Shown here: positions 12,948-60,229 of the stretch, one piece after another | How the letters are laid out: each line of letters starts with the position of its first letter | Numbering within the stretch: the first letter of the stretch is position 1 | IMG/VR virus record: IMGVR_UViG_3300042881_004014 | Source: an uncultured virus (IMG/VR IMGVR_UViG_3300042881_004014) | Lineage: Duplodnaviria > Heunggongvirae > Uroviricota > Caudoviricetes | Strand: one strand, 5' to 3' | Length of the DNA: 60,861 nt | Notes under the pieces: model-generated | What the model saw: the letters and a program-made list of their open reading frames with translations, nothing else | Told to the model about the DNA's origin: nothing | Database searches by the model: none | Position numbers and translations under genes: made by a program

Positions 12948-13388
12948 TTAATCATAATATTCTACAATAACACCAGCTTCTTTAAACATTTGAATTGAAC
13001 GTTCCGCCGACTGCTTCCATATCTCAGGCCAAGGTTTTGTAGATGTTCTGAATACTACCTTTATTATTCCAGCTGAAATTATACCTCTAGCACAATCAGC
13101 ACAACTAATATCACACGTCATATACATTGTTGTACCTAAAGTAGATACACCAATTCTAGCAGCATTATAAATAGCGTTTCTTTCCGCATGTTCGAACCAA
13201 AAGTATTTCTCAGGTCTTTCTTGCCTCTCATCAATATCATCGTTTATACCCCTTGGAAATGAGTTATAGCCGGTAGAAACAATTGAATTGTCTTTACCGA
13301 CTAACACTACACCAATCTGAGTTTTGATATCTTTTGATTTAAGTTTTACTTGCTCCGCAATGTTTATGAAATACTCATCCCAATTCAT
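12948..13388 (-). CDS. dCMP deaminase
   Basis: GYN, HAERNAI, SCADC zinc motifs. Confidence 0.9.
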   Translation of the reverse strand: MNWDEYFINIAEQVKLKSKDIKTQIGVVLVGKDNSIVSTGYNSFPRGINDDIDERQERPEKYFWFEHAERNAIYNAARIGVSTLGTTMYMTCDISCADCARGIISAGIIKVVFRTSTKPWPEIWKQSAERSIQMFKEAGVIVEYYD

Positions 13389-53156: not shown

Positions 53157-54010
53157 ACGATGAGAATACTCGTTTTAATGAACCAGCTTTATAAGGGTTA
53201 TTGGTTGCCTTAATTTCCACTTCCTTTTGAGAAGTACCAATTCAATGTGGGTAAGTAATGTCCTACCACTCATAAAGTTACAAACTACTCTCTTTGTAGT
53301 CCACCTCTTCGAATCTGCCGACCCGATTAACACCTCGCGATGCTAGAAGTTTTTCGAAAGAATCACATTTCCCTTGAGAGGATTTGTGGCAGGGAACAGC
53401 TCCCTACTATGTACACACCTTTCGTCTGCAACTGGTAACCTCTTTCTCTAGTTTGTTTTTTGATTTTGCGTCAATAGGCAAATTGAGTTTTGGTTTGTAG
53501 ATAAATTCAAGTAGTGGATTACCACTAGCTCCGCCCCATTTTGAAGAACGGAATACTATACTACTCGATACGTTATCTCTAACGTCATACTTTAAGATTA
53601 CTTCAGTACCCACTCTTTGGTGAGAGGTAGGTAAGGATGATAACAACACCACTTGTACTTCATCATACCTTTCGGTTTTAAGTAACCTTTAATATTGAAT
53701 CACGCAATGATAAGGAGAGATTAAGTCCTCACTTCTTGCATTAATTCTATGGGTTATTTTTATTGGTGTTCCCACCTCAACTGAAGTATCTACAATACCC
53801 CAGTCATCATTCCATTTCGCTACGGAGTTACCCTCACTACATTCAGGAACAATGATATCCCACTTGCCTACTCAAGCTCCATCCGAAGATGAAACCGCAA
53901 ACCCCTCTAAACCAAAGAGATTCACTTTATCCTACTTTCGTAGTTTATTTAACGACCATAGGCGGCCGTTATACACTATGTAGAACAAGTCTACTATGTG
54001 CAATATTTTC
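53157..54010 (-). ncRNA. GOLLD-like large structured RNA (about 850 nt)
   Basis: No credible ORF, raised GC, many hairpins with GNRA/UUCG loops, embedded among tRNAs, own promoter (54040-54071); size and context match GOLLD. Confidence 0.65.
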
Positions 54011-54015
54011 AATAC

Positions 54016-54027
54016 TTTCAAAGAACT
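54016..54027 (-). promoter_or_regulatory. boxA-like antitermination element
   Basis: AGTTCTTTGAAA just downstream of promoter; related copies at 56259-56270, 56724-56734 and 58838-58849. Confidence 0.6.
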
Positions 54028-54105
54028 AATTTTCTTTTTCAAAGATACGAATAATTTTTCAATTATCCTAATCTTTTTTTAATTATTTTTCAATAATTTA
54101 TTTAG

Positions 54106-54353: not shown

Positions 54354-54359
54354 AAAACG

Positions 54360-54480
54360 AGAGAGGGTTCGGGTCTTTCAAGGTTTCTGATTAAGTGCAA
54401 TGAGTGACGTCTTTCTACTATAAACCTTTTTTCGAAAATTAATACACTCTACCTCTTAATTACAGCTTCACTCCCTCTCT
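54360..54480 (-). ncRNA. Candidate rod-like ncRNA (possibly 6S-like)
   Basis: AGAGAGGG/CCCUCUCU closing stem; ACCUUGAA near 3' end. Confidence 0.35.
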
Positions 54481-54488
54481 ATTTTTTA

Positions 54489-54674
54489 CTACTTTGCGTC
54501 TGCTTCAGTAGTAATTTCTGCTACAGTTGAATCAGTTGCGATTACAGCTGATGAATCCGTTGCTACTGCAGTTGAGTCTGTTGTTGACGTTTCTGTGTTT
54601 GATTGTTTGTTTCCACAAGATGCCATAACTACCGTTACTGCTACTACTGTTAAAATTGCCATTACTTTTTTCAT
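54489..54674 (-). CDS. Small Ser/Thr-rich lipoprotein
   Basis: MKKVMAILTVVAVTVVMASC lipobox; TDS repeats. Confidence 0.75.
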   Translation of the reverse strand: MKKVMAILTVVAVTVVMASCGNKQSNTETSTTDSTAVATDSSAVIATDSTVAEITTEADAK

Positions 54675-54732
54675 AACTTTTGTTTTAATTGTTTTAAATT
54701 GATAAATAAACATAGGAACCTACCTATATTTG

Positions 54733-54827
54733 TAATCATAATTGGATTCGAACCAATTCCAGCTTTACAATAAAGAACCTTTCGATTCAACCTTTGTGAG
54801 GTGCCGCCAACCAATGGCCTTATGATT
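54733..54827 (-). ncRNA. tRNA-like RNA with rearranged anticodon region
   Basis: AAUCAUA/UAUGAUU+A acceptor, canonical UUCGAAU T arm, GCCA/UGGC D arm, no canonical anticodon arm. Confidence 0.6.
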
Positions 54828-54895
54828 ATTTAAATGAACTATACAAATATACGAAATGTTTTTCACAATTCCAAATATTTTTTCATTTATTTTTG

Positions 54896-54969: not shown

Positions 54970-55066
54970 ATTAATCACATCGTACCGGCATTCTGGTTCT
55001 CGCTAACAGAAATTCCATCTCATTTAACCCAGTCTGTGCGATGTGGGTACCGGAGGATGTGATTTG

Positions 55067-55145
55067 TAGTCAGAGCCGGATTCGAACCGGATAAGCAACC
55101 ACTTTATTGGATTCGGGAACCGTCCCTCATTACGCCCATCTGACC
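55067..55145 (-). ncRNA. tRNA-like RNA (acceptor and T arm intact, D/anticodon arms non-canonical)
   Basis: GGUCAGA/UCUGACU+A; CCGG-UUCGAAU-CCGG. Confidence 0.6.
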
Positions 55146-55220
55146 ATTTTAAACATCCAGTCTGACCTTCCAGACAGTACAAGTCGGTATTAATTTCACG
55201 TGCCGTTTTGTAGTGAATGT

Positions 55221-55463
55221 TTAATATCCTATTTGTTCTTTAATCTCCCATTGCTTTTCAATAGAAATTCTTTCAATTCTCTCTACTGGTACAAACCCAT
55301 CCAATCCCTTATCTTTAACATCTTCAAAATGTTCGATAGTATCTAAACGAAATCCGAACTTATATCTGATGTATTGGAACTTTTCACCATCCCAATATGC
55401 AGTATGGTTATTTCTGCAAAATCCATTGTACCAACCTTCTTTCATTTCAATTTTTGGTATCAT
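55221..55463 (-). CDS. Hypothetical protein within tRNA array
   Basis: 80-aa ORF. Confidence 0.65.
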   Translation of the reverse strand: MIPKIEMKEGWYNGFCRNNHTAYWDGEKFQYIRYKFGFRLDTIEHFEDVKDKGLDGFVPVERIERISIEKQWEIKEQIGY

Positions 55464-55477
55464 ACTTTTTGTTTTAG

Positions 55478-56242: not shown

Positions 56243-56352
56243 ATTTTAGATTTTCAACATGTCAAAGAACAAAACTGTCTCTCTTTTACTATGTAAAGAT
56301 ACAACATAATTTTGAATTATACAAGCTTTTTTAAAAACTTTTATAATTTTTG

Positions 56353-56719
56353 TGGAGGTGGCGAGAGTCGAACTCGCGTCCAAATACGGATTTAATAAAC
56401 ATCATTCACAAGCTTAGTACATTTTTCTTAATGTACAAAATAGATAAAGATTTATACATTCATTATCATTAATGTTTCCAACTCGATTTCGGGTTCAGTT
56501 GGGTTCCACCTGAGTTCACATTCTATTTTAAGTCCCACGATGTGTGCGGGAGGGATTATGCTGCTACAGCGTAATCGGCACCAACGAAAGACATAGCATC
56601 TTCGAAGGTCATTGTAGATAATTCTACTGCGTTTATTGTTCGATAGGTATTTACGGATTTCCATCTAACCCGGCTTGCAACTTACCAATTCATCGTACCT
56701 GTCAAAACCAGGCACCCCC
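56353..56719 (-). ncRNA. ssrA: tmRNA
   Basis: GGGGGUG/CACCUCC+A with G3:U70; UUUUGAC; T arm UUCGACU; tag ORF 56630-56556 AVELSTMTFEDAMSFVGADYAVAA*. Confidence 0.92.
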
Positions 56720-56802
56720 ATAAATCAAAGAACTTATCTTTTTTGATACTTCAAATATACAAAATCTTTTTGGTATTTCCAAATTTAATTTCAATTATTT
56801 TG

Positions 56803-56876
56803 TGACCCCGAATGGATTCGAACCATTGACTCCCTCATTAAAAGTGAGGTGCTCTAACCAACTGAGCTACGAGGTC
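56803..56876 (-). tRNA. tRNA-Lys(TTT)
   Basis: CCTCA-CT-TTT-AA-TGAGG. Confidence 0.93.
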
Positions 56877-56882
56877 ATTCTG

Positions 56883-56952
56883 AGGTTAAGGTTGGAATCG
56901 AACCAACTCCGTAGATTTTGCAGACCTACCGGCCTCCAAGACCATCCTAACC
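56883..56952 (-). tRNA. tRNA-Cys(GCA), compact non-canonical
   Basis: U73, 5-nt D loop, 6-bp anticodon stem, 3-nt variable loop. Confidence 0.8.
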
Positions 56953-56956
56953 ATTC

Positions 56957-57409
56957 CTATCTACAAGTGTAATCTGCTGCCCTTGTTGCGATTTGCATAT
57001 CAGGTTTAAGATTAACTTCATATCCTAATGAGTTTGCCCAACCCTTTGTAGATTGTACTAACTTAGAAGAGTAATGCTTTTCATTTAAGTTGTAATCTAA
57101 ATCAATCTGAATAGTTACACCTAAGTTACTCCTTAACCATTCAGCCACTTCAATAGAATATTCAGTTTCTTTCCACAATCTTGTCCACTTATCTAAAATC
57201 TTATCTACTTTTAGTTTGTGATTAATATAGTGTACACCTGTATTACCATACCTATACGCAATTACAATTGAATATGATGTACAATCTGATAAGTTTTGAG
57301 AATCACACCCAATATGAATATCCGCATGTGGACATTCTTTTAATATATCAATCGTATGTTGTACGATATCTACCACTTCCCCATTTACTTTTCTAAAAAC
57401 TTTTACCAT
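56957..57409 (-). CDS. RNase H-like YkuK/DUF458-family protein
   Basis: IGCDSQ, RLWKETEYSIEVA, IDLD, S, KP, AAD. Confidence 0.8.
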   Translation of the reverse strand: MVKVFRKVNGEVVDIVQHTIDILKECPHADIHIGCDSQNLSDCTSYSIVIAYRYGNTGVHYINHKLKVDKILDKWTRLWKETEYSIEVAEWLRSNLGVTIQIDLDYNLNEKHYSSKLVQSTKGWANSLGYEVNLKPDMQIATRAADYTCR

Positions 57410-57435
57410 TACTATTAATATTAATTATTAAATTG

Positions 57436-57508
57436 TGGAGGTGAGTGGAATCGAACCACTTCCTCTGGATTTTCAGTCCAGCGCTTCTACCAAGTTAGCT
57501 TCACCTCC
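57436..57508 (-). tRNA. tRNA-Phe(GAA)
   Basis: CTGGA-CT-GAA-AA-TCCAG. Confidence 0.92.
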
Positions 57509-57513
57509 TTTTG

Positions 57514-57584
57514 CACGGGTAGAAAGATTCGAACTTCCATCTAAGCTTTTGGAGAGCCGTATGCTACCATTGCACCATACCCGT
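57514..57584 (-). tRNA. tRNA-Trp(CCA)
   Basis: CT-CCA-AA, G73. Confidence 0.9.
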
Positions 57585-57590
57585 ATTTTG

Positions 57591-57662
57591 TACACTTAGA
57601 GAGATTCGAACTCCCATTATCCGGTTCGTAGCCGGAGGTTCTATCCGTTGAACTATAAGTGC
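57591..57662 (-). tRNA. tRNA-Arg(ACG)
   Basis: TCCGG-CT-ACG-AA-CCGGA. Confidence 0.92.
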
Positions 57663-57666
57663 ATTG

Positions 57667-57748
57667 TACCCAAGGAGAGACTCGAACTCTCAAGCCTTTC
57701 GGCCACGGTTTCTAAGACCGCTGTGTCTACCAATTCCACCACTCGGGC
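57667..57748 (-). tRNA. tRNA-Leu(TAG)
   Basis: CT-TAG-AA, variable arm. Confidence 0.92.
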
Positions 57749-57755
57749 ATTGTTG

Positions 57756-57829
57756 GGTGATTAATGGGATTCGAACCCATCCTATCAGAATCACAATCTG
57801 ACGTGCTAACCGCTAACACTATAAACACC
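57756..57829 (-). tRNA. tRNA-His(GTG)
   Basis: G-1:C73, TT-GTG-AT. Confidence 0.92.
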
Positions 57830-57896
57830 ATGTTGTGTATAATATATTATCCATTTACCCCATATATCTGAGTTTTATATAATATATTGTACATTG

Positions 57897-57966
57897 TTGT
57901 GTGTATGAGGTTCGAACTCATTTGGTCATCCTTATGAGAGATAACTCTTTTCCACTAAGCCACACA
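57897..57966 (-). tRNA. Atypical tRNA(CAT)
   Basis: UGUGUG/CACACA acceptor, 3-bp D stem, 7-bp anticodon stem, CU-CAU-AA, T arm AUGAG-UUCGAAC-CUCAU. Confidence 0.7.
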
Positions 57967-57971
57967 ATTTA

Positions 57972-58153
57972 AAAGAAGTATAACCAGAATTTTGTGTAAA
58001 CCTATCATTTGTCTTTTTGCCCCAACCTTGTCCGAATTGCTCACCTTCATAGACTATTTTGGGTTGCATCCTCAGTAGTAAAACGAATTTCTTCTCCTAC
58101 TTTAAGCAATGATGTTCTGAGTTTCCTCTCCGTAGAGCGATAGGAACTTCTTT
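57972..58153 (-). ncRNA. rnpB: Minimal RNase P RNA (catalytic domain only)
   Basis: P1 AAAGAAGU/ACUUCUUU, P2 CCUAUC/GAUAGG, CR-I GAGGAAACUCAGAAC, CR-IV AGACAAAU, CR-V ACAAAAUUCUGGUUAU, P5 CAUC/GAUG+CAA, L15 GGU. Confidence 0.85.
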
Positions 58154-58154
58154 G

Positions 58155-58242
58155 CGGAGAGTATAGGATTCGAACCTATGGAACCCTTACGAGTTCAACA
58201 CCTTAGCAGGGTGCCGCTTTAAACCAACTCAGCCAACTATCC
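58155..58242 (-). tRNA. tRNA-Ser(GCT)
   Basis: CT-GCT-AA, long variable arm. Confidence 0.92.
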
Positions 58243-58247
58243 AATTG

Positions 58248-58321
58248 TTGGTAATATAGGAATCGAACCTATAACCTTTCGCGTATCAGGCGAATGCTCT
58301 AACCAATTGAGCTAATTACCA
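58248..58321 (-). tRNA. tRNA-Ile(GAT)
   Basis: TTCGC-CT-GAT-AC-GCGAA. Confidence 0.92.
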
Positions 58322-58399
58322 ATAAGTTGCAGGATATCGCTTAACCTGCGGTGTTGATATCATTACACACCTTTGATGTTACCACCAGCGATTTTTTTG

Positions 58400-58483
58400 T
58401 GGGAGCAGAAGGATTCGAACCTACTACCTATGCGGGTTACCAGATTTACAGTCTGGCGCCTAACCAATTCGTGCGTTACTCCC
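58400..58483 (-). tRNA. tRNA-Tyr(GTA)
   Basis: CCAGA-CT-GTA-AA-TCTGG, variable arm. Confidence 0.88.
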
Positions 58484-58589
58484 AATGGCGTTCCATATTA
58501 CTCACATCTGATAACCATATTGGGTTACCCACTTAATCTTACAACAGCTTTAAACTGAGAGATTGTAAGAATGTGTATGGAACATTTTG

Positions 58590-58663
58590 TAGAAGATATA
58601 GGATTCGAACCTATGACCCTTTGGATGTAAACCAAATGCTCTAACCAACTGAGCTAATCTTCT
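58590..58663 (-). tRNA. tRNA-Val(TAC)
   Basis: TTTGG-TT-TAC-AT-CCAAA. Confidence 0.92.
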
Positions 58664-58668
58664 ATTTG

Positions 58669-58744
58669 TCTAGATGGTAGGATTCGAACCTACGTGCTCT
58701 CGCGTCCAAGGCGAGCGAGAAAAACCTGACTCCTCTACATCTAG
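58669..58744 (-). tRNA. tRNA-Pro(TGG)
   Basis: C1:G72, CT-TGG-AC. Confidence 0.9.
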
Positions 58745-58750
58745 TTATTG

Positions 58751-58821
58751 TTATCCCTCGAGGACTCGAACCTCGACTGCCTGAATCAAAGTCAGGTGTC
58801 CTGCCATTAGACCAAAGGATA
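58751..58821 (-). tRNA. tRNA-Gln(TTG)
   Basis: U1:A72, CT-TTG-AT. Confidence 0.92.
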
Positions 58822-58858
58822 ATTTGTGTTACCAATATTTCAAAGAACTATACTTTTG

Positions 58859-58930
58859 CGGGGAGGGAGAATTTCGAAATCTCGACCTGATGATTAACAG
58901 TCATCTGCTCTTCCTCTGAGCTACCACCCC
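58859..58930 (-). tRNA. tRNA-Asn(GTT)
   Basis: GATGA-CT-GTT-AA-TCATC, G73. Confidence 0.9.
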
Positions 58931-58938
58931 AATAAATT

Positions 58939-58975
58939 AAAAAACCCCTAACTAAATTTTCATCAGTTAGGGGTT
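58939..58975 (-). terminator. Intrinsic terminator (attenuator) immediately upstream of tRNA array
   Basis: AACCCCUAACU...AGUUAGGGGUU stem followed by U-tract, 8 nt before tRNA-Asn. Confidence 0.85.
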
Positions 58976-59009
58976 CTTAAATACTTTACTATTTAATCTC
59001 TACATTATA

Positions 59010-59135
59010 TCATTCAAATATAATATCCCCTAACTTTGTATACGGTAATCTATTATCCGATTTGCGAATCGCACAATTACCAACCCAACTAAACGTTGAT
59101 TGATTAAGGCCCATATGTTGTATTAGAGTTTTCAT
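59010..59135 (-). CDS. Putative attenuator leader peptide (41 aa, all 20 amino acids)
   Basis: MKTLIQHMGLNQSTFSWVGNCAIRKSDNRLPYTKLGDIIFE*; contains antiterminator strand AGUUAGGGG (59027-59035). Confidence 0.75.
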   Translation of the reverse strand: MKTLIQHMGLNQSTFSWVGNCAIRKSDNRLPYTKLGDIIFE

Positions 59136-59185
59136 TTTTATGAATGTTATATGTTTATATATATTGTGTTTTTTATTTAACGTTG

Positions 59186-59217
59186 TAAATATACGAATAA
59201 TATTTGAATTAAACAAG
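59186..59217 (-). promoter_or_regulatory. Promoter for leader peptide and tRNA array
   Basis: CTTG-N20-TATATTTA. Confidence 0.65.
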
Positions 59218-59242
59218 CTTTTTTTTATTTTTTTTTATTTTT

Positions 59243-59629: not shown

Positions 59630-60229
59630 TTATTTAATATTAATATTCCAACTGATTGAAATACGTGGTACTTCGGTTGAAGTGTACTCTAAAGTCCCAT
59701 GCATTAACCACGATGGGAAAGATATAAGTAAACCTTCTTTTGGTTGGATATGTAATTGAGGTGCCAACTCCTGATTTGTATTATTTGGTAATAACTTAAC
59801 CAATGTGTTTATCGGTGAATCTATAACAAACTCACCACCTTTATCATTTTCCAAATCAACATACAATACGGCTGAGAACCCATTCGATGGTTGCCCAGCT
59901 CCCAAATGGTCATGCATCTCTTGATAACATCCCTTAGTTCCAATCGTCATCCAACAATCATCTACTGAAAATTTGGTTGTAGTAAATTCACCATCTACTA
60001 AATACTGAGATGTGTGATGTAATATCAAATCCTGCAAATAATCAGGGTAGAACTTCCGTTCAACTTCACAAAATATGTTTGTTCTCGTATTACACTTCCA
60101 TTGGTTTGTATTAAACAAATCATCATTTTCCTTTATGTACTTATACACATCTGCTTTCAATCGATGATGTAATTCCGCATCAATTCTGTCAAAGTATATT
60201 GGTGTTGGGAATAGGTTTTGTATTGGCAT
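59630..60229 (-). CDS. 2OG-Fe(II) oxygenase (TIGR02466-like)
   Basis: LFPTPI, HDH, SAVLY, FPSWLMH, RISISWN. Confidence 0.85.
   Translation of the reverse strand: MPIQNLFPTPIYFDRIDAELHHRLKADVYKYIKENDDLFNTNQWKCNTRTNIFCEVERKFYPDYLQDLILHHTSQYLVDGEFTTTKFSVDDCWMTIGTKGCYQEMHDHLGAGQPSNGFSAVLYVDLENDKGGEFVIDSPINTLVKLLPNNTNQELAPQLHIQPKEGLLISFPSWLMHGTLEYTSTEVPRISISWNINIK

What the first reader, a model, noticed from the sequence alone, without database searches (positions are those of the whole stretch)
58939..59217. All-codon leader-peptide attenuator gating the phage tRNA array
Seen: promoter (59186-59217), then a 41-codon ORF, then a strong intrinsic terminator, then tRNA-Asn, the first gene of the array. 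The peptide contains all 20 amino acids, and its codons hit every decoding class: TTA and CTA/CTT, TCA/TCG and AGT, CGC and AGA, ATT and ATA, plus GC-ending codons unexpected in AT-rich DNA (GGC, ACG, GCG, CCG, GGG). Codons 34-37 hold AGUUAGGGG (59027-59035), identical to the terminator's 3' arm and so able to sequester its 5' arm CCCCUAACU. Established: this is trp/his attenuation logic, normally tuned to one amino acid. Inference: a ribosome reaching the stop masks the antiterminator and transcription ends; stalling at any earlier codon, because a host tRNA is cleaved or uncharged, allows read-through into the tRNAs and RNase P RNA. This would be an inducible counter-defence against tRNA depletion. 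Glu occurs only as the last codon, so it would not be sensed.
Basis: partly seen in the sequence, partly recalled or inferred. Interest (0 to 1): 0.95.

Follow-up and report, generated by a model that had tools for sequence, protein, structure and literature searches.

The report
Leader-peptide attenuator before phage tRNAs
A tiny translated test gene wired to a switchable transcription stop sits in front of a lake phage's tRNA genes and probably lets the phage make more tRNA when ribosomes decode slowly, a control that is known for amino-acid genes but that I could not find published for tRNA genes.

Summary

Comparison with other phages supports a ribosome-sensing attenuator:
- Among Bacteroidota-type phage loci, 14 of 20 terminators at array heads carry an upstream copy of their own 3' arm, each with different sequence.
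- All 14 also have one ATG ORF ending at or just after that copy (2.1 expected).
- In a 14-unit set drawn from fetched arrays, leader composition matches the tRNAs that follow (0 of 20,000 permutations), and leader diversity rises with array breadth (rho 0.69).

The leader covers all 24 decoding classes, as befits a complete tRNA set (P about 5e-5 to 6e-4, chosen post hoc).

Corrections:
- There is no RNase P RNA; the array holds GOLLD RNA and a tmRNA.
- Five internal promoters mean the leader gates at most the first 15 tRNAs.
- The promoter is Bacteroidota-type.
- A ribosome at the stop codon barely touches the antiterminator.
- The counter-defence role is untested.

Translation and switching are inferred, not shown. 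This scan has noted the same kind of element before on other DNA. Five paper searches on the topic found no published description.

The parts
59186..59217 (-). Promoter of Bacteroidota type: TTG at 59216-59214 and a -7 element TATATTTA at 59193-59186. The expected transcription start is near 59181.
   Evidence: Sequence. The ~35-nt motif is repeated at 9 places of the phage record on one strand, several directly before genes. The pattern TTG-N17-22-TAHHTTT[GA] is found here and at three array-internal sites. The -33/-7 consensus TTTG/TANNTTTG comes from passages of PMC6847099.
59136..59180 (-). A-rich 5' untranslated region with no Shine-Dalgarno sequence, and A at -3.
   Evidence: Sequence. 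Bacteroidota lack SD sequences and use upstream adenines (PMC6847099 passages). A similar UTR precedes a real gene at another copy of the promoter (G000 223661-223727).
59010..59135 (-). Leader ORF of 41 codons plus TGA, with all 20 amino acids and all 24 decoding classes.
   Evidence: Homologous ORFs occur in 6 protein clusters and in metagenome loci L030-L033. pN/pS is 2.7, against 0.31 for the neighbouring gene.
59122..59128 (-). Region 1, CUCUAAU (codons 3-5), which can pair with region 2 as a weak anti-antiterminator.
   Evidence: MFE structures of the window and of L032. P(1:2) = 0.72 when a ribosome sits at the stop codon in the model.
59052..59077 (-). Internal hairpin in the ORF (AUUGU-G-CGAUU-CGCA-AAUCG-G-AUAAU), a possible pause hairpin.
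   Evidence: The only two changes in L032 (CGC to ATC) fall in its loop.
59027..59035 (-). Region 2, AGUUAGGGG: the antiterminator 5' strand, identical to the terminator's 3' arm.
   Evidence: 3 matches against 0.38 expected. (0 of 500 shuffles); the 2:3 domain is -22.3 kcal/mol against -21.9 for the terminator.
59002..59026 (-). Hairpin containing the stop codon (59012-59010). It lies inside the antiterminator loop.
   Evidence: L032 keeps a 10-bp hairpin here with different sequence in its own fold.
58977..58996 (-). Small A/U hairpin inside the antiterminator loop.
   Evidence: 7 pairs unchanged in L032.
58965..58973 (-). Region 3, CCCCUAACU: the strand shared between antiterminator and terminator.
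58939..58978 (-). Intrinsic terminator. Region 4, AGUUAGGGG, is at 58953-58945 and the T run at 58944-58939.
58858..58930 (-). tRNA-Asn (GTT), the first gene of the array, starting 8 nt after the T run.
58833..58848 (-). boxA-like motif GTTCTTTGAAATATTG after tRNA-Asn.
   Evidence: The same 16-mer occurs in Bacteroidota 16S-23S spacers. boxA consensus sequences come from PMC13753749 passages.
56802..58930 (-). Block 1: the 15 tRNAs (Asn to Lys) with no promoter motif between them and the leader. This is the most the leader can gate on its own.
56752..56782 (-). Internal promoter before the tmRNA. Others lie at 56324-56294, at 54874-54844, and at -7 elements 54235-54228 and 54047-54040.

Best explanation
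This is a ribosome-mediated (leader-peptide) transcription attenuator at the head of the tRNA array of an uncultured 271-kb freshwater phage, whose promoters and boxA-like motifs are of Bacteroidota type.

Proposed mechanism. Host RNA polymerase starts at the 59217-59186 promoter and transcribes the 41-codon leader. Region 2 (59035-59027) can pair with region 3 (58973-58965) to form an antiterminator. Otherwise region 3 pairs with region 4 (58953-58945) to form the terminator. The two structures are almost equal in energy, and region 2 is made first, so the choice is kinetic. If the leading ribosome lags anywhere in codons 2 to about 30, region 2 is free, the antiterminator forms, and transcription runs into tRNA-Asn and the next 14 tRNAs. 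It could run on through the whole array, since no further strong terminator was found. If the ribosome keeps pace and occupies codons 32-41 or the stop when regions 3 and 4 emerge, region 2 is hidden or captured by region 1, and transcription ends at 58939-58944.

Because the leader samples every decoding class of a phage that carries tRNAs for all 20 amino acids, it would report slow decoding of nearly any codon. Tyr and Glu are exceptions, and Pro is borderline.

Shown here: the sequence elements, their recurrence with different sequences in other phages, the fixed place of the ORF's stop, and the match between leaders and the tRNAs that follow.

Inferred: translation of the leader, the kinetic race, and the physiological trigger (a shortage of charged tRNA from any cause, including host tRNA cleavage).
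For: 1. The elements are present and more than chance.

2. The two structures have near-equal energy: antiterminator domain -22.3, terminator -21.9 kcal/mol. The RNA made up to region 3 folds into the antiterminator.

3. In the footprint scan, P(2:3) is about 0.99 with the A site at codons 2-29, 0 at codons 32-41, and 0.22 at the stop, where P(1:2) is 0.72.

4. The architecture recurs:
- The marine relative L032/L033 keeps promoter, ORF (44 codons, all 20 aa), arms and tRNA order.
- The distant G004 has an unrelated 29-codon ORF. TCTCGAGG in its last codons is the exact complement of the terminator's 5' arm, followed by tRNA-Ala and the boxA-like motif.
- Of 83 sequences with the boxA-like motif, 20 have a terminator within 260 nt upstream. 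Of those, 14 have a 6-10-nt upstream copy of the 3' arm (shuffle p <= 0.09; 12 at <= 0.036), lying 27-67 nt before the 5' arm.

5. Control: of 25 terminators in this phage, only this one has an upstream arm copy of 7 nt or more.

6. All 14 leaders have an ATG ORF of 22-44 codons whose stop lies between the arm copy and the terminator. Shuffles give 2.1 of 14 expected, with a product of probabilities of 1.6e-12. ORF length gives Fisher p 3.5e-5.

7. In a second, partly overlapping set of 14 leader-block units, leader composition matches the tRNAs that follow: sum of match fractions 7.98 against 6.14 +/- 0.32 in permutations, reached by 0 of 20,000. Without the window it is 7.08 against 5.27.

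8. In the same 14 units, leader diversity rises with the number of amino acids served by the block: Spearman 0.69, p 0.006; without the window 0.61, p 0.026.

9. The peptide is not under protein-level constraint: pN 0.124, pS 0.045, against 0.091 and 0.294 in the upstream gene; Fisher p 0.021.

10. There is no promoter motif in the 8 nt between the T run and tRNA-Asn.

11. RNA-library contigs of a close relative bridge from region 2 across the terminator into tRNA-Asn, at depth 370 and 473 in two runs. Their only differences lie between regions 2 and 3. This is a weak hint only.
Against: - There is no direct evidence of translation or of conditional read-through. Contigs cannot show RNA ends, and DNA carry-over in RNA libraries is not excluded.
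- At equilibrium the full leader always forms the terminator (P 0.79-1.0 at every ribosome position), so the switch rests on assumed co-transcriptional kinetics.
- With no ribosome the snapshot model predicts read-through, unlike trp superattenuation.
- The stop codon starts 14 nt after region 2, so a terminating ribosome covers only 1 nt of it. In 4 of 14 leaders the gap is 16-32 nt.
- The window and L032 have identical arms, so there is no covariation within the family. With the window-only MFE, substitutions are not clearly depleted in stems (15 of 30 in paired positions, P 0.07).
- The all-20 and all-24 property was selected by eye. The other 12 leaders show no excess diversity.
- Leader codons are not enriched for block-1 tRNAs (25 of 40 against 53%, P 0.15).
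- Five internal promoters make 10 tRNAs, the tmRNA and GOLLD at least partly independent.
- A -7-like TATATTTG lies inside the leader (59022-59015). It could start transcripts lacking region 2, but it is not kept in L032.
- A at -3 is seen in only 8 of 14 leaders (my count).
- Some of the 14 are homologous pairs (window/L032, L108/L113), so the joint probabilities are overstated.
Confidence: 0.65

Rival explanations
1. A coupling sensor without codon design. The leader is translated and the switch works as described, but it only reports whether ribosomes keep up with RNA polymerase (general translation capacity). Full coverage of amino acids and codon classes would then be chance, or a by-product of RNA-structure constraints.
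For: The other 12 leaders show no excess diversity over composition-matched shuffles. The window's coverage was picked post hoc. Leader codons are not enriched for block-1 tRNAs. Synonymous sites are strongly conserved, so RNA structure shapes the sequence.
Against: Leader composition tracks the downstream tRNAs across 14 units (0 of 20,000 permutations). Diversity scales with block breadth. All 24 classes have P 6e-4 even against composition-matched open shuffles. By my count, 5 of 6 full-length distinct family peptides keep all 20 amino acids.
Confidence: 0.15
2. A structured RNA leader that senses something other than a ribosome, such as a metabolite, a protein or a tRNA (riboswitch-like or T-box-like). 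The open reading frame would be incidental.
For: The leader folds far better than shuffles (z -5.4). The window and L032 fold into the same architecture at -57.9 and -57.2 kcal/mol. Synonymous sites are conserved and pN/pS is 2.7. All 53 consensus pairs are unchanged between the two sequences.
Against: No Rfam family, T-box included, matches the leader at E <= 1. An ATG ORF ending at the antiterminator is present in 14 of 14 leaders, against 2.1 expected. Its amino-acid content follows the tRNAs downstream, which an untranslated RNA would not need. Leaders of different phages share no sequence or common fold that I could see.
Confidence: 0.1
3. An independent small gene or small RNA with its own promoter and terminator. 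The tRNAs would be expressed by terminator leakage or from other promoters, and the repeated 9-mer would be a duplication remnant.
For: The peptide is conserved in 6 clusters. Internal promoters exist in the array. The terminator is strong.
Against: The peptide has no Pfam or PHROG family. It does not align with the HTH_17 protein it resembled by eye. pN/pS is above 1. The arm copy is specific to array-head terminators (1 of 25 elsewhere in this phage; 14 of 20 at array heads). There is no promoter between the terminator and tRNA-Asn.
Confidence: 0.05

Closest known systems
Leader-peptide transcription attenuators of amino-acid operons (trpL, hisL, leuL, pheL; recalled from general knowledge, with papers seen only as listings and abstracts)
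   Same: A short ORF in the leader, an antiterminator that competes with an intrinsic terminator for one shared strand, and a stalled ribosome that favours read-through. The codons in the leader correspond to what the operon supplies.
   Different: The regulated genes are tRNAs of a phage, not biosynthetic enzymes. There is no run of one regulatory codon; one or a few codons of every class are present instead. Region 2 lies inside the ORF, 14 nt before the stop, rather than after it. The model's default without ribosomes is read-through. No Rfam leader family matches.
Multivalent attenuators (ilvGMEDA and thr leaders; recalled)
   Same: One leader senses several amino acids at once.
   Different: Those sense two or three amino acids through clustered codons. 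This one has 24 decoding classes spread over 41 codons.
T-box riboswitches
   Same: They sense tRNA charging and decide between antiterminator and terminator.
   Different: T-boxes bind one uncharged tRNA directly and need no translation. No T-box match was found here, and the conserved ORF points to a ribosome as the sensor.
rrn boxA / Nus-factor antitermination (PMC13753749, passages read)
   Same: The motif GUUCUUUGAAAUAUUG after tRNA-Asn and after the internal promoters resembles boxA (E. coli UGCUCUUUAACA, B. subtilis AUGAUCUUUGAAA). The same 16-mer lies in Bacteroidota 16S-23S spacers.
   Different: It is a separate element downstream of the attenuator and does not act on the leader terminator. 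NusB binding was not tested.
Ribosome-stalling attenuators of antibiotic-resistance genes (for example the tylosin-induced yxjB leader, PMC6851288, abstract seen)
   Same: A stalled ribosome in a leader ORF redirects RNA folding to allow downstream expression.
   Different: There the stall is drug- and peptide-specific. Here no conserved arrest peptide is seen, and the leader peptides differ freely.

Membership tests
Leader-peptide (ribosome-mediated) transcription attenuators | A short ORF lies in the transcribed leader between the promoter and the regulated genes. | tested here: met
   The 41-codon ATG ORF at 59135-59010 lies downstream of the promoter. An ORF of 22-44 codons is present in 14 of 14 comparable leaders, against 2.1 expected.
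Leader-peptide (ribosome-mediated) transcription attenuators | An intrinsic terminator lies directly upstream of the regulated genes. | tested here: met
   Terminator at 58978-58939, -21.9 kcal/mol, 8 nt before tRNA-Asn.
Leader-peptide (ribosome-mediated) transcription attenuators | A mutually exclusive antiterminator uses one terminator strand. | tested here: met
   A 9-nt exact copy of the 3' arm lies at 59035-59027. The domain energy is -22.3 kcal/mol. The same relation holds in 14 of 20 array-head terminators and in only 1 of 25 terminators of this phage.
Leader-peptide (ribosome-mediated) transcription attenuators | A ribosome that completes the ORF blocks the antiterminator. | tested here: inconclusive
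   In the model, codons 32-41 abolish 2:3. At the stop codon only 1 nt is covered, with P(2:3) 0.22 and P(1:2) 0.72. The stop lies -11 to +32 nt from the end of the arm copy in the 14 leaders.
Leader-peptide (ribosome-mediated) transcription attenuators | The leader codons correspond to the product of the regulated genes. | tested here: met
   All 24 decoding classes appear before a tRNA set for all 20 amino acids. Across 14 units, leaders match their tRNA blocks. There is no specific enrichment for block 1 in the window.
Leader-peptide (ribosome-mediated) transcription attenuators | The leader is translated, and stalling raises read-through. | not testable with these tools
   Only RNA-library contigs that bridge the terminator are available. 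There are no ribosome-profiling or 3'-end data.
T-box riboswitch | The leader matches the T-box covariance model (Stem I, specifier, T-box sequence). | tested here: not met
   No Rfam match of any cis-regulatory family in 58931-59220 at E <= 1 or at gathering score.
Rfam amino-acid leader families (His, Trp, Thr, Leu leaders) | The leader matches a family model. | tested here: not met
   Searches list no such family.
rrn boxA antitermination element (for the motif at 58848-58833) | The sequence resembles the boxA consensus and sits in the rrn leader or spacer position in host-type genomes. | tested here: met
   Consensus sequences come from PMC13753749. The exact 16-mer was found mostly in records titled as Bacteroidota. 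In 26 of 80 loci, tRNA-Ile and/or tRNA-Ala lie just upstream. In 6 of 10 loci checked, the 23S start lies downstream.
rrn boxA antitermination element (for the motif at 58848-58833) | The motif binds NusB/S10 and confers termination resistance. | not testable with these tools
   No computation here addresses binding.

The most novel reading that the evidence does not exclude
The leader is a deliberate pan-codon test strip: a 41-codon ORF that samples every decoding class so that slow decoding of almost any codon switches on the phage's own complete tRNA set. Slow decoding could come from starvation, from codon-usage mismatch with the host, or from host anticodon nucleases that cleave tRNAs as an anti-phage defence. 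It would be one member of a widespread, unpublished class in Bacteroidota-type phages, in which each tRNA block is gated by a leader written in the amino acids of that block. This would be inducible, self-limiting tRNA supply and a built-in sensor of tRNA-targeting defence.
Probability: 0.35. Interest if true: 0.9.

Novelty: new variant of a known kind. Interest (0 to 1): 0.8.

Why it matters
Phage tRNA genes are usually discussed as constitutive helpers for codon usage or as replacements for host tRNAs destroyed by defence nucleases. How their expression is controlled is largely unknown. An attenuator that reads the decoding capacity of the cell and answers by transcribing tRNAs would be feedback control of tRNA supply through translation itself. 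That logic is known for amino-acid biosynthesis, but five paper searches found no description of it for tRNA genes. The searched library lacks most subscription journals.

The comparative signal makes the idea directly testable with reporter fusions. That signal is unrelated sequences with the same wiring, leaders that mirror their tRNA blocks, and an all-class leader before a full tRNA set.

It also gives annotators a rule: a short ORF that contains a copy of the next terminator's 3' arm, in front of a tRNA block, is a regulatory leader and not a hypothetical protein. Gene callers here produced a 68-aa product that starts inside the promoter.

Tried and rejected
1. Small HTH protein. By eye the leader peptide resembled an HTH_17 wing, and gut-type phages carry an HTH_17 gene before their arrays. 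Pfam and PHROGs gave nothing for the peptide at E <= 10. BLASTP against the HTH_17 protein of L102 gave no alignment at E <= 100, although that protein is HTH_17 at E 2.4e-10. Rejected.

2. Synteny through the upstream 111-aa gene. It has 12 viral relatives, but 10 of the 11 scanned have no tRNA nearby. This was no use for the leader.

3. Exact terminator pattern in viral contigs. There were 8 hits; one is the near-identical record, and the others were not examined further.

4. Leader DNA against five related jumbo-phage records. Only promoter-like fragments matched.

5. Phage database blastn. Only tRNA-Asn matched.

6. Peptide search in viral contigs found only the near-identical record. A first try with the single 41-aa peptide was too short for the tool.

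7. Equilibrium folding with ribosome masks. The terminator always wins, so equilibrium cannot explain a switch. I moved to a co-transcriptional snapshot.

8. Substitutions against stems, using the window-only fold. The result was not significant (P 0.07 to 0.09). The clean RNAalifold result is biased because the structure was derived from both sequences.

9. RNA runs. The four runs laid are contigs, so no RNA ends, strand or levels can be read, and parts without cover prove nothing.

10. Earlier-findings look-ups by sequence and by place gave nothing.

12. A at -3 as a sign of translation. It is present in only 8 of 14 leaders (my count), so it is not informative.
Full report
WHAT IS THERE

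- Promoter: CTTG at 59217-59214, then TATATTTA at 59193-59186 after 20 nt.
- ORF: 59135-59010, 41 codons plus TGA, MKTLIQHMGLNQSTFSWVGNCAIRKSDNRLPYTKLGDIIFE.
- The 9-mer AGTTAGGGG lies at 59035-59027 (codons 34-37) and again at 58953-58945. Its complement lies at 58973-58965. These are the only three matches in the window, against 0.38 expected, and 0 of 100 shuffles reach three.
- Terminator: 58978-58940, with 16 pairs and a T run.
- tRNA-Asn lies at 58930-58858 and is the first of 25 tRNA genes plus a tmRNA.
- The tRNAs cover all 20 amino acids.

Rfam finds GOLLD RNA at 53157-53568 and a tmRNA at 56350-56719, and no RNase P RNA anywhere in the window.

WHAT KIND OF PHAGE AND PROMOTER

- The ~35-nt promoter sequence recurs at 9 places of the record, all on the same strand. 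Several copies lie directly before genes, including the neighbouring 111-aa gene.
- It fits the Bacteroidota -33/-7 promoter (TTTG/TANNTTTG), not the sigma-70 -35/-10 type. Bacteroidota also lack Shine-Dalgarno sequences and rely on A-rich upstream regions (PMC6847099, passages read). This explains the SD-less, A-rich 5' UTR of the leader.
- A 16-nt motif, GTTCTTTGAAATATTG, follows tRNA-Asn (58848-58833). Close variants follow four of the internal promoters of the array.
- The motif resembles boxA: E. coli UGCUCUUUAACA and B. subtilis AUGAUCUUUGAAA (PMC13753749, passages read).
- In cellular genomes the exact 16-mer is found mostly in records whose titles name Bacteroidota. In 26 of 80 loci, tRNA-Ile and/or tRNA-Ala lie just upstream. 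In 6 of 10 loci checked by Rfam, a 23S rRNA start lies downstream. That is the rrn spacer boxA position.
- The host is therefore most likely a member of the Bacteroidota. This is an inference.

LIMITS OF WHAT THE LEADER CAN GATE

- The same promoter motif occurs inside the array at 56782-56752 (before the tmRNA), 56324-56294 (before tRNA-Leu-UAA) and 54874-54844.
- Strict -7 elements also occur at 54235-54228 and 54047-54040, the latter before GOLLD.
- Only the first 15 tRNAs (Asn to Lys, 58930-56802) have no promoter of their own.
- No promoter motif lies in the 8 nt between the T run and tRNA-Asn.
- A -7-like TATATTTG lies inside the leader at 59022-59015. A transcript started there would lack region 2 and would still meet the terminator. 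It is not conserved in the relative L032.

IS THE ANTITERMINATOR REAL?

- The leader folds much better than shuffles (z -5.4).
- The antiterminator domain is the region 2:3 helix enclosing two hairpins. At -22.3 kcal/mol it is almost equal in energy to the terminator at -21.9. RNA ending just after region 3 adopts it as its minimum-energy fold.
- At equilibrium the full leader always forms the terminator, so any switch must be kinetic, as in classical attenuators.
- I then ran a snapshot model: RNA through region 3, with a 30-nt ribosome footprint forced single-stranded. P(2:3) is about 0.99 with the A site at codons 2-29, then 0.74 and 0.38 at codons 30 and 31, and 0 at codons 32-41.
- At the stop codon P(2:3) is 0.22, and region 2 is mostly captured by region 1 (CUCUAAU, 59128-59122; P 0.72).
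- So read-through is predicted when the ribosome lags, and termination when it keeps pace.
- Tyr (codon 32) and Glu (codon 41) lie outside the predicted sensing zone, and Pro (codon 31) is borderline.

COMPARATIVE EVIDENCE

1. Close family.
- Six protein clusters carry the peptide at 79-100% identity.
- DNA is available for two identical loci (L030, L031) and for a diverged marine pair (L032, L033). The marine pair has the same order: promoter, ORF (44 codons, all 20 aa), identical arms, then tRNA-Asn, Gln, Pro, Val, Tyr.
- Between the window and L032 the leader has pN 0.124 and pS 0.045. The adjacent 111-aa gene has pN 0.091 and pS 0.294; Fisher p is 0.021.
- The peptide sequence is therefore free to change, while the nucleotides, synonymous sites included, are constrained. 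This is expected for a leader whose RNA and openness matter, not its product.

2. Distant phages.
- In G004 (311 kb), an unrelated 29-codon ORF precedes the array. TCTCGAGG in its last codons is the exact complement of the terminator's 5' arm CCTCGAGA. tRNA-Ala and the boxA-like motif follow.

3. Systematic set.
- A scan of IMG/VR for the boxA-like 16-mer gave more than 116 stretches. I analysed the 80 for which flanking DNA was fetched; 27 hold tRNAs, 26 of them on the motif's strand.
- I added the window, L032 and G004, making 83 sequences. Of these, 20 have a terminator within 260 nt upstream of the motif.
- Of those 20, 14 have a 6-10-nt exact upstream copy of the 3' arm, 27-67 nt before the 5' arm. 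Shuffle p is <= 0.09 for all 14 and <= 0.036 for 12. The other 6 have none.
- Control: by the same finder, the phage's own genome has 25 terminators, and only the leader's has a copy of 7 nt or more.
- All 14 have one ATG ORF of 22-44 codons whose stop lies -11 to +32 nt from the end of the copy.
- Shuffles that keep the copy in place give such an ORF in 9-23% of trials per locus. That is 2.1 expected of 14, with a product of 1.6e-12. ORF length alone gives Fisher p 3.5e-5.
- Three pairs are related (window/L032, L108/L113, and partly L066/L111), so these joint figures are overstated. The excess remains large.

DO THE LEADERS READ THEIR tRNAs?

- A look-up of this scan's earlier notes showed the same idea recorded on other genomes: 71 notes in at least 66 genomes, unchecked AI notes. 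That prompted me to test it on my own loci.
- I fetched up to 10 kb of 15 arrays plus G004 and called tRNAs.
- I defined leader units automatically as terminator, arm copy, and an ORF ending between them. A block was defined as the tRNAs after the terminator, up to the next leader or a gap over 700 nt.
- Dropped before the test: duplicate calls of one leader, L032 (a homologue of the window with a truncated array), L289 and L293 (no tRNA within the rule), and L286 (no unit found by the rule).
- For the remaining 14 units, the sum of per-leader fractions of residues whose tRNA is in the block is 7.98. Permuting leaders among blocks gives 6.14 +/- 0.32, and 0 of 20,000 permutations reach the observed value. 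Without the window it is 7.08 against 5.27, again 0 of 20,000.
- 13 of 14 units exceed the expectation from pooled leader composition. G004, for example, matches at 25 of 28 residues.
- Leader diversity, as a z-score for length, rises with the number of amino acids served by the block: Spearman 0.69, p 0.006; without the window 0.61, p 0.026.
- This is hard to explain unless the ORFs are decoded.

THE ALL-CODON CLAIM FOR THIS LEADER

- P(all 20 amino acids in 41 codons) is 0.0029 from phage codon usage, and 0.008 in composition-matched open shuffles.
- P(all 24 decoding classes) is 4.9e-5 and 6e-4.
- 21 classes fall within codons 2-30, with P 5e-4 and 0.003.
- By my count, five of the six full-length distinct family peptides keep all 20 amino acids.
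- Against a general design: the 12 leaders outside this family show no excess diversity. The window's codons are not enriched for block-1 tRNAs (25 of 40, P 0.15). The feature was chosen post hoc.
- My reading: an all-class leader is what the matching rule predicts for a complete tRNA set, so design is plausible but not proven.

RNA DATA

- Four freshwater metatranscriptome runs, held as Logan contigs, were laid on the window.
- Contigs of a close relative run from 59039 across regions 2-4 and the T run into tRNA-Asn and beyond. They are 536 nt at depth 370 and 1347 nt at depth 473, in two runs of different studies.
- Their only differences lie between regions 2 and 3. Upstream of 59039 they are unlike the window. 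The neighbouring protein gene is covered at depth 2-12.
- Contigs cannot show ends or a single transcript, and DNA carry-over is possible. This is only a weak hint that read-through RNA exists.

WHAT IS KNOWN

- The mechanism is that of leader-peptide attenuation (trp, his, leu, thr, ilv; recalled general knowledge), and most closely the multivalent leaders.
- The differences are the target (phage tRNA genes), the absence of codon runs, the place of region 2 inside the ORF, and the predicted default of read-through.
- It is not a T-box or any Rfam leader family.
- Five full-text searches combined leader peptide, attenuation, antiterminator, tRNA array, tRNA gene cluster, phage-encoded or viral tRNA. 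None found a paper that describes such control. I saw only listings and abstracts, and most subscription-journal papers are outside the library.
- No supplements were consulted.

VERDICT

- A ribosome-sensing attenuator before the tRNA array is well supported by comparison, at confidence 0.65 for the full mechanism.
- The pan-codon design is plausible.
- RNase P RNA, whole-array gating and masking at the stop codon are wrong or overstated.
- The counter-defence role is open.

It is a new variant of a known kind of control, and the scan has met it before on other DNA.

Noticed in passing
window 53157-53568 (-): A GOLLD RNA (Rfam 257 bits) sits inside the tRNA array with its own promoter-like -7 element (54047-54040) and boxA-like core (54025). 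tRNA-Gly starts 6 nt after it. A related record, G002, also has GOLLD (305 bits).
   Followed up: partly
window 56350-56719 (-): A phage-encoded tmRNA (tag AVELSTMTFEDAMSFVGADYAVAA) lies in the middle of the array behind its own promoter (56782-56752). Other phages in the set also carry tmRNAs (L290, L296).
   Followed up: no
window 58833-58848, 56732, 56269, 54193, 54025 (-): A boxA-like motif, GTTCTTTGA(A/C)ATATTG and variants, follows tRNA-Asn and four of the internal promoters. The exact 16-mer is the 16S-23S spacer motif of many Bacteroidota, and it occurs in more than 116 IMG/VR stretches, often 10-25 nt before a tRNA. Phage tRNA arrays seem to borrow rrn-type antitermination signals.
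   Followed up: partly
G000 record: 186779-186824, 223661-223727, 217914-217943, 137834-137865, 109291-109311, 137518-137540, 215127-215159, 13223-13252: A conserved promoter block of about 35 nt (..TTGTTTAATTCAAATATTATTCGTATATTT..) is repeated on one strand only, probably one temporal class of host-type promoters.
   Followed up: partly
window spacers 56953-57434, 54970-55476, 54354-54894, 53569-54104 (-): Four spacers of 482-541 nt inside the array have unknown content. The automated rule found no further leader unit in the window's array.
   Followed up: no
L050, L058, L059, L079, L100, L102, L120: A different head architecture is seen in another phage group. An HTH_17 gene (L102:936-1139, Pfam E 2.4e-10) ends just before a structured leader of about 100 nt, in which I saw no leader ORF by eye, and the first tRNA (Arg-CCT or Asn).
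   Followed up: partly
L047 2261-2336; L286 3813-3885; L299 6799-6871: Unusual tRNAs occur in related arrays: one with a four-base anticodon (ggaa) next to GOLLD in G002, a CTA-anticodon tRNA (called Pyl) in G007, and a TCA-anticodon tRNA (called SeC) in G020. The last two are suppressor-like and may indicate stop-codon recoding.
   Followed up: no
window 59015-59022 (-): A strict -7 promoter element, TATATTTG, lies inside the leader, in the 5' arm of the stop-codon hairpin. It overlaps a TGnTATAAT-like string and is not conserved in L032.
   Followed up: partly
L066 about 611-690 (oriented; = L291): Between the leader terminator and the boxA-like motif lies a tRNA-like stretch ending in GGTTCGATTCCC..CCA-like sequence that ARAGORN did not call. 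It may be a degenerate or unusual first tRNA.
   Followed up: no
window 59010-59216 (-): Gene callers in public data extend the leader to a 68-aa product (P0001, P0002) starting at a TTG inside the promoter. This is an annotation artefact.
   Followed up: yes
window 59630-60229 (-): The gene two positions upstream of the leader encodes a 2OG-Fe(II) oxygenase-family protein (Pfam PF13759, E 4.9e-14). The 111-aa gene between them has no family.
   Followed up: no
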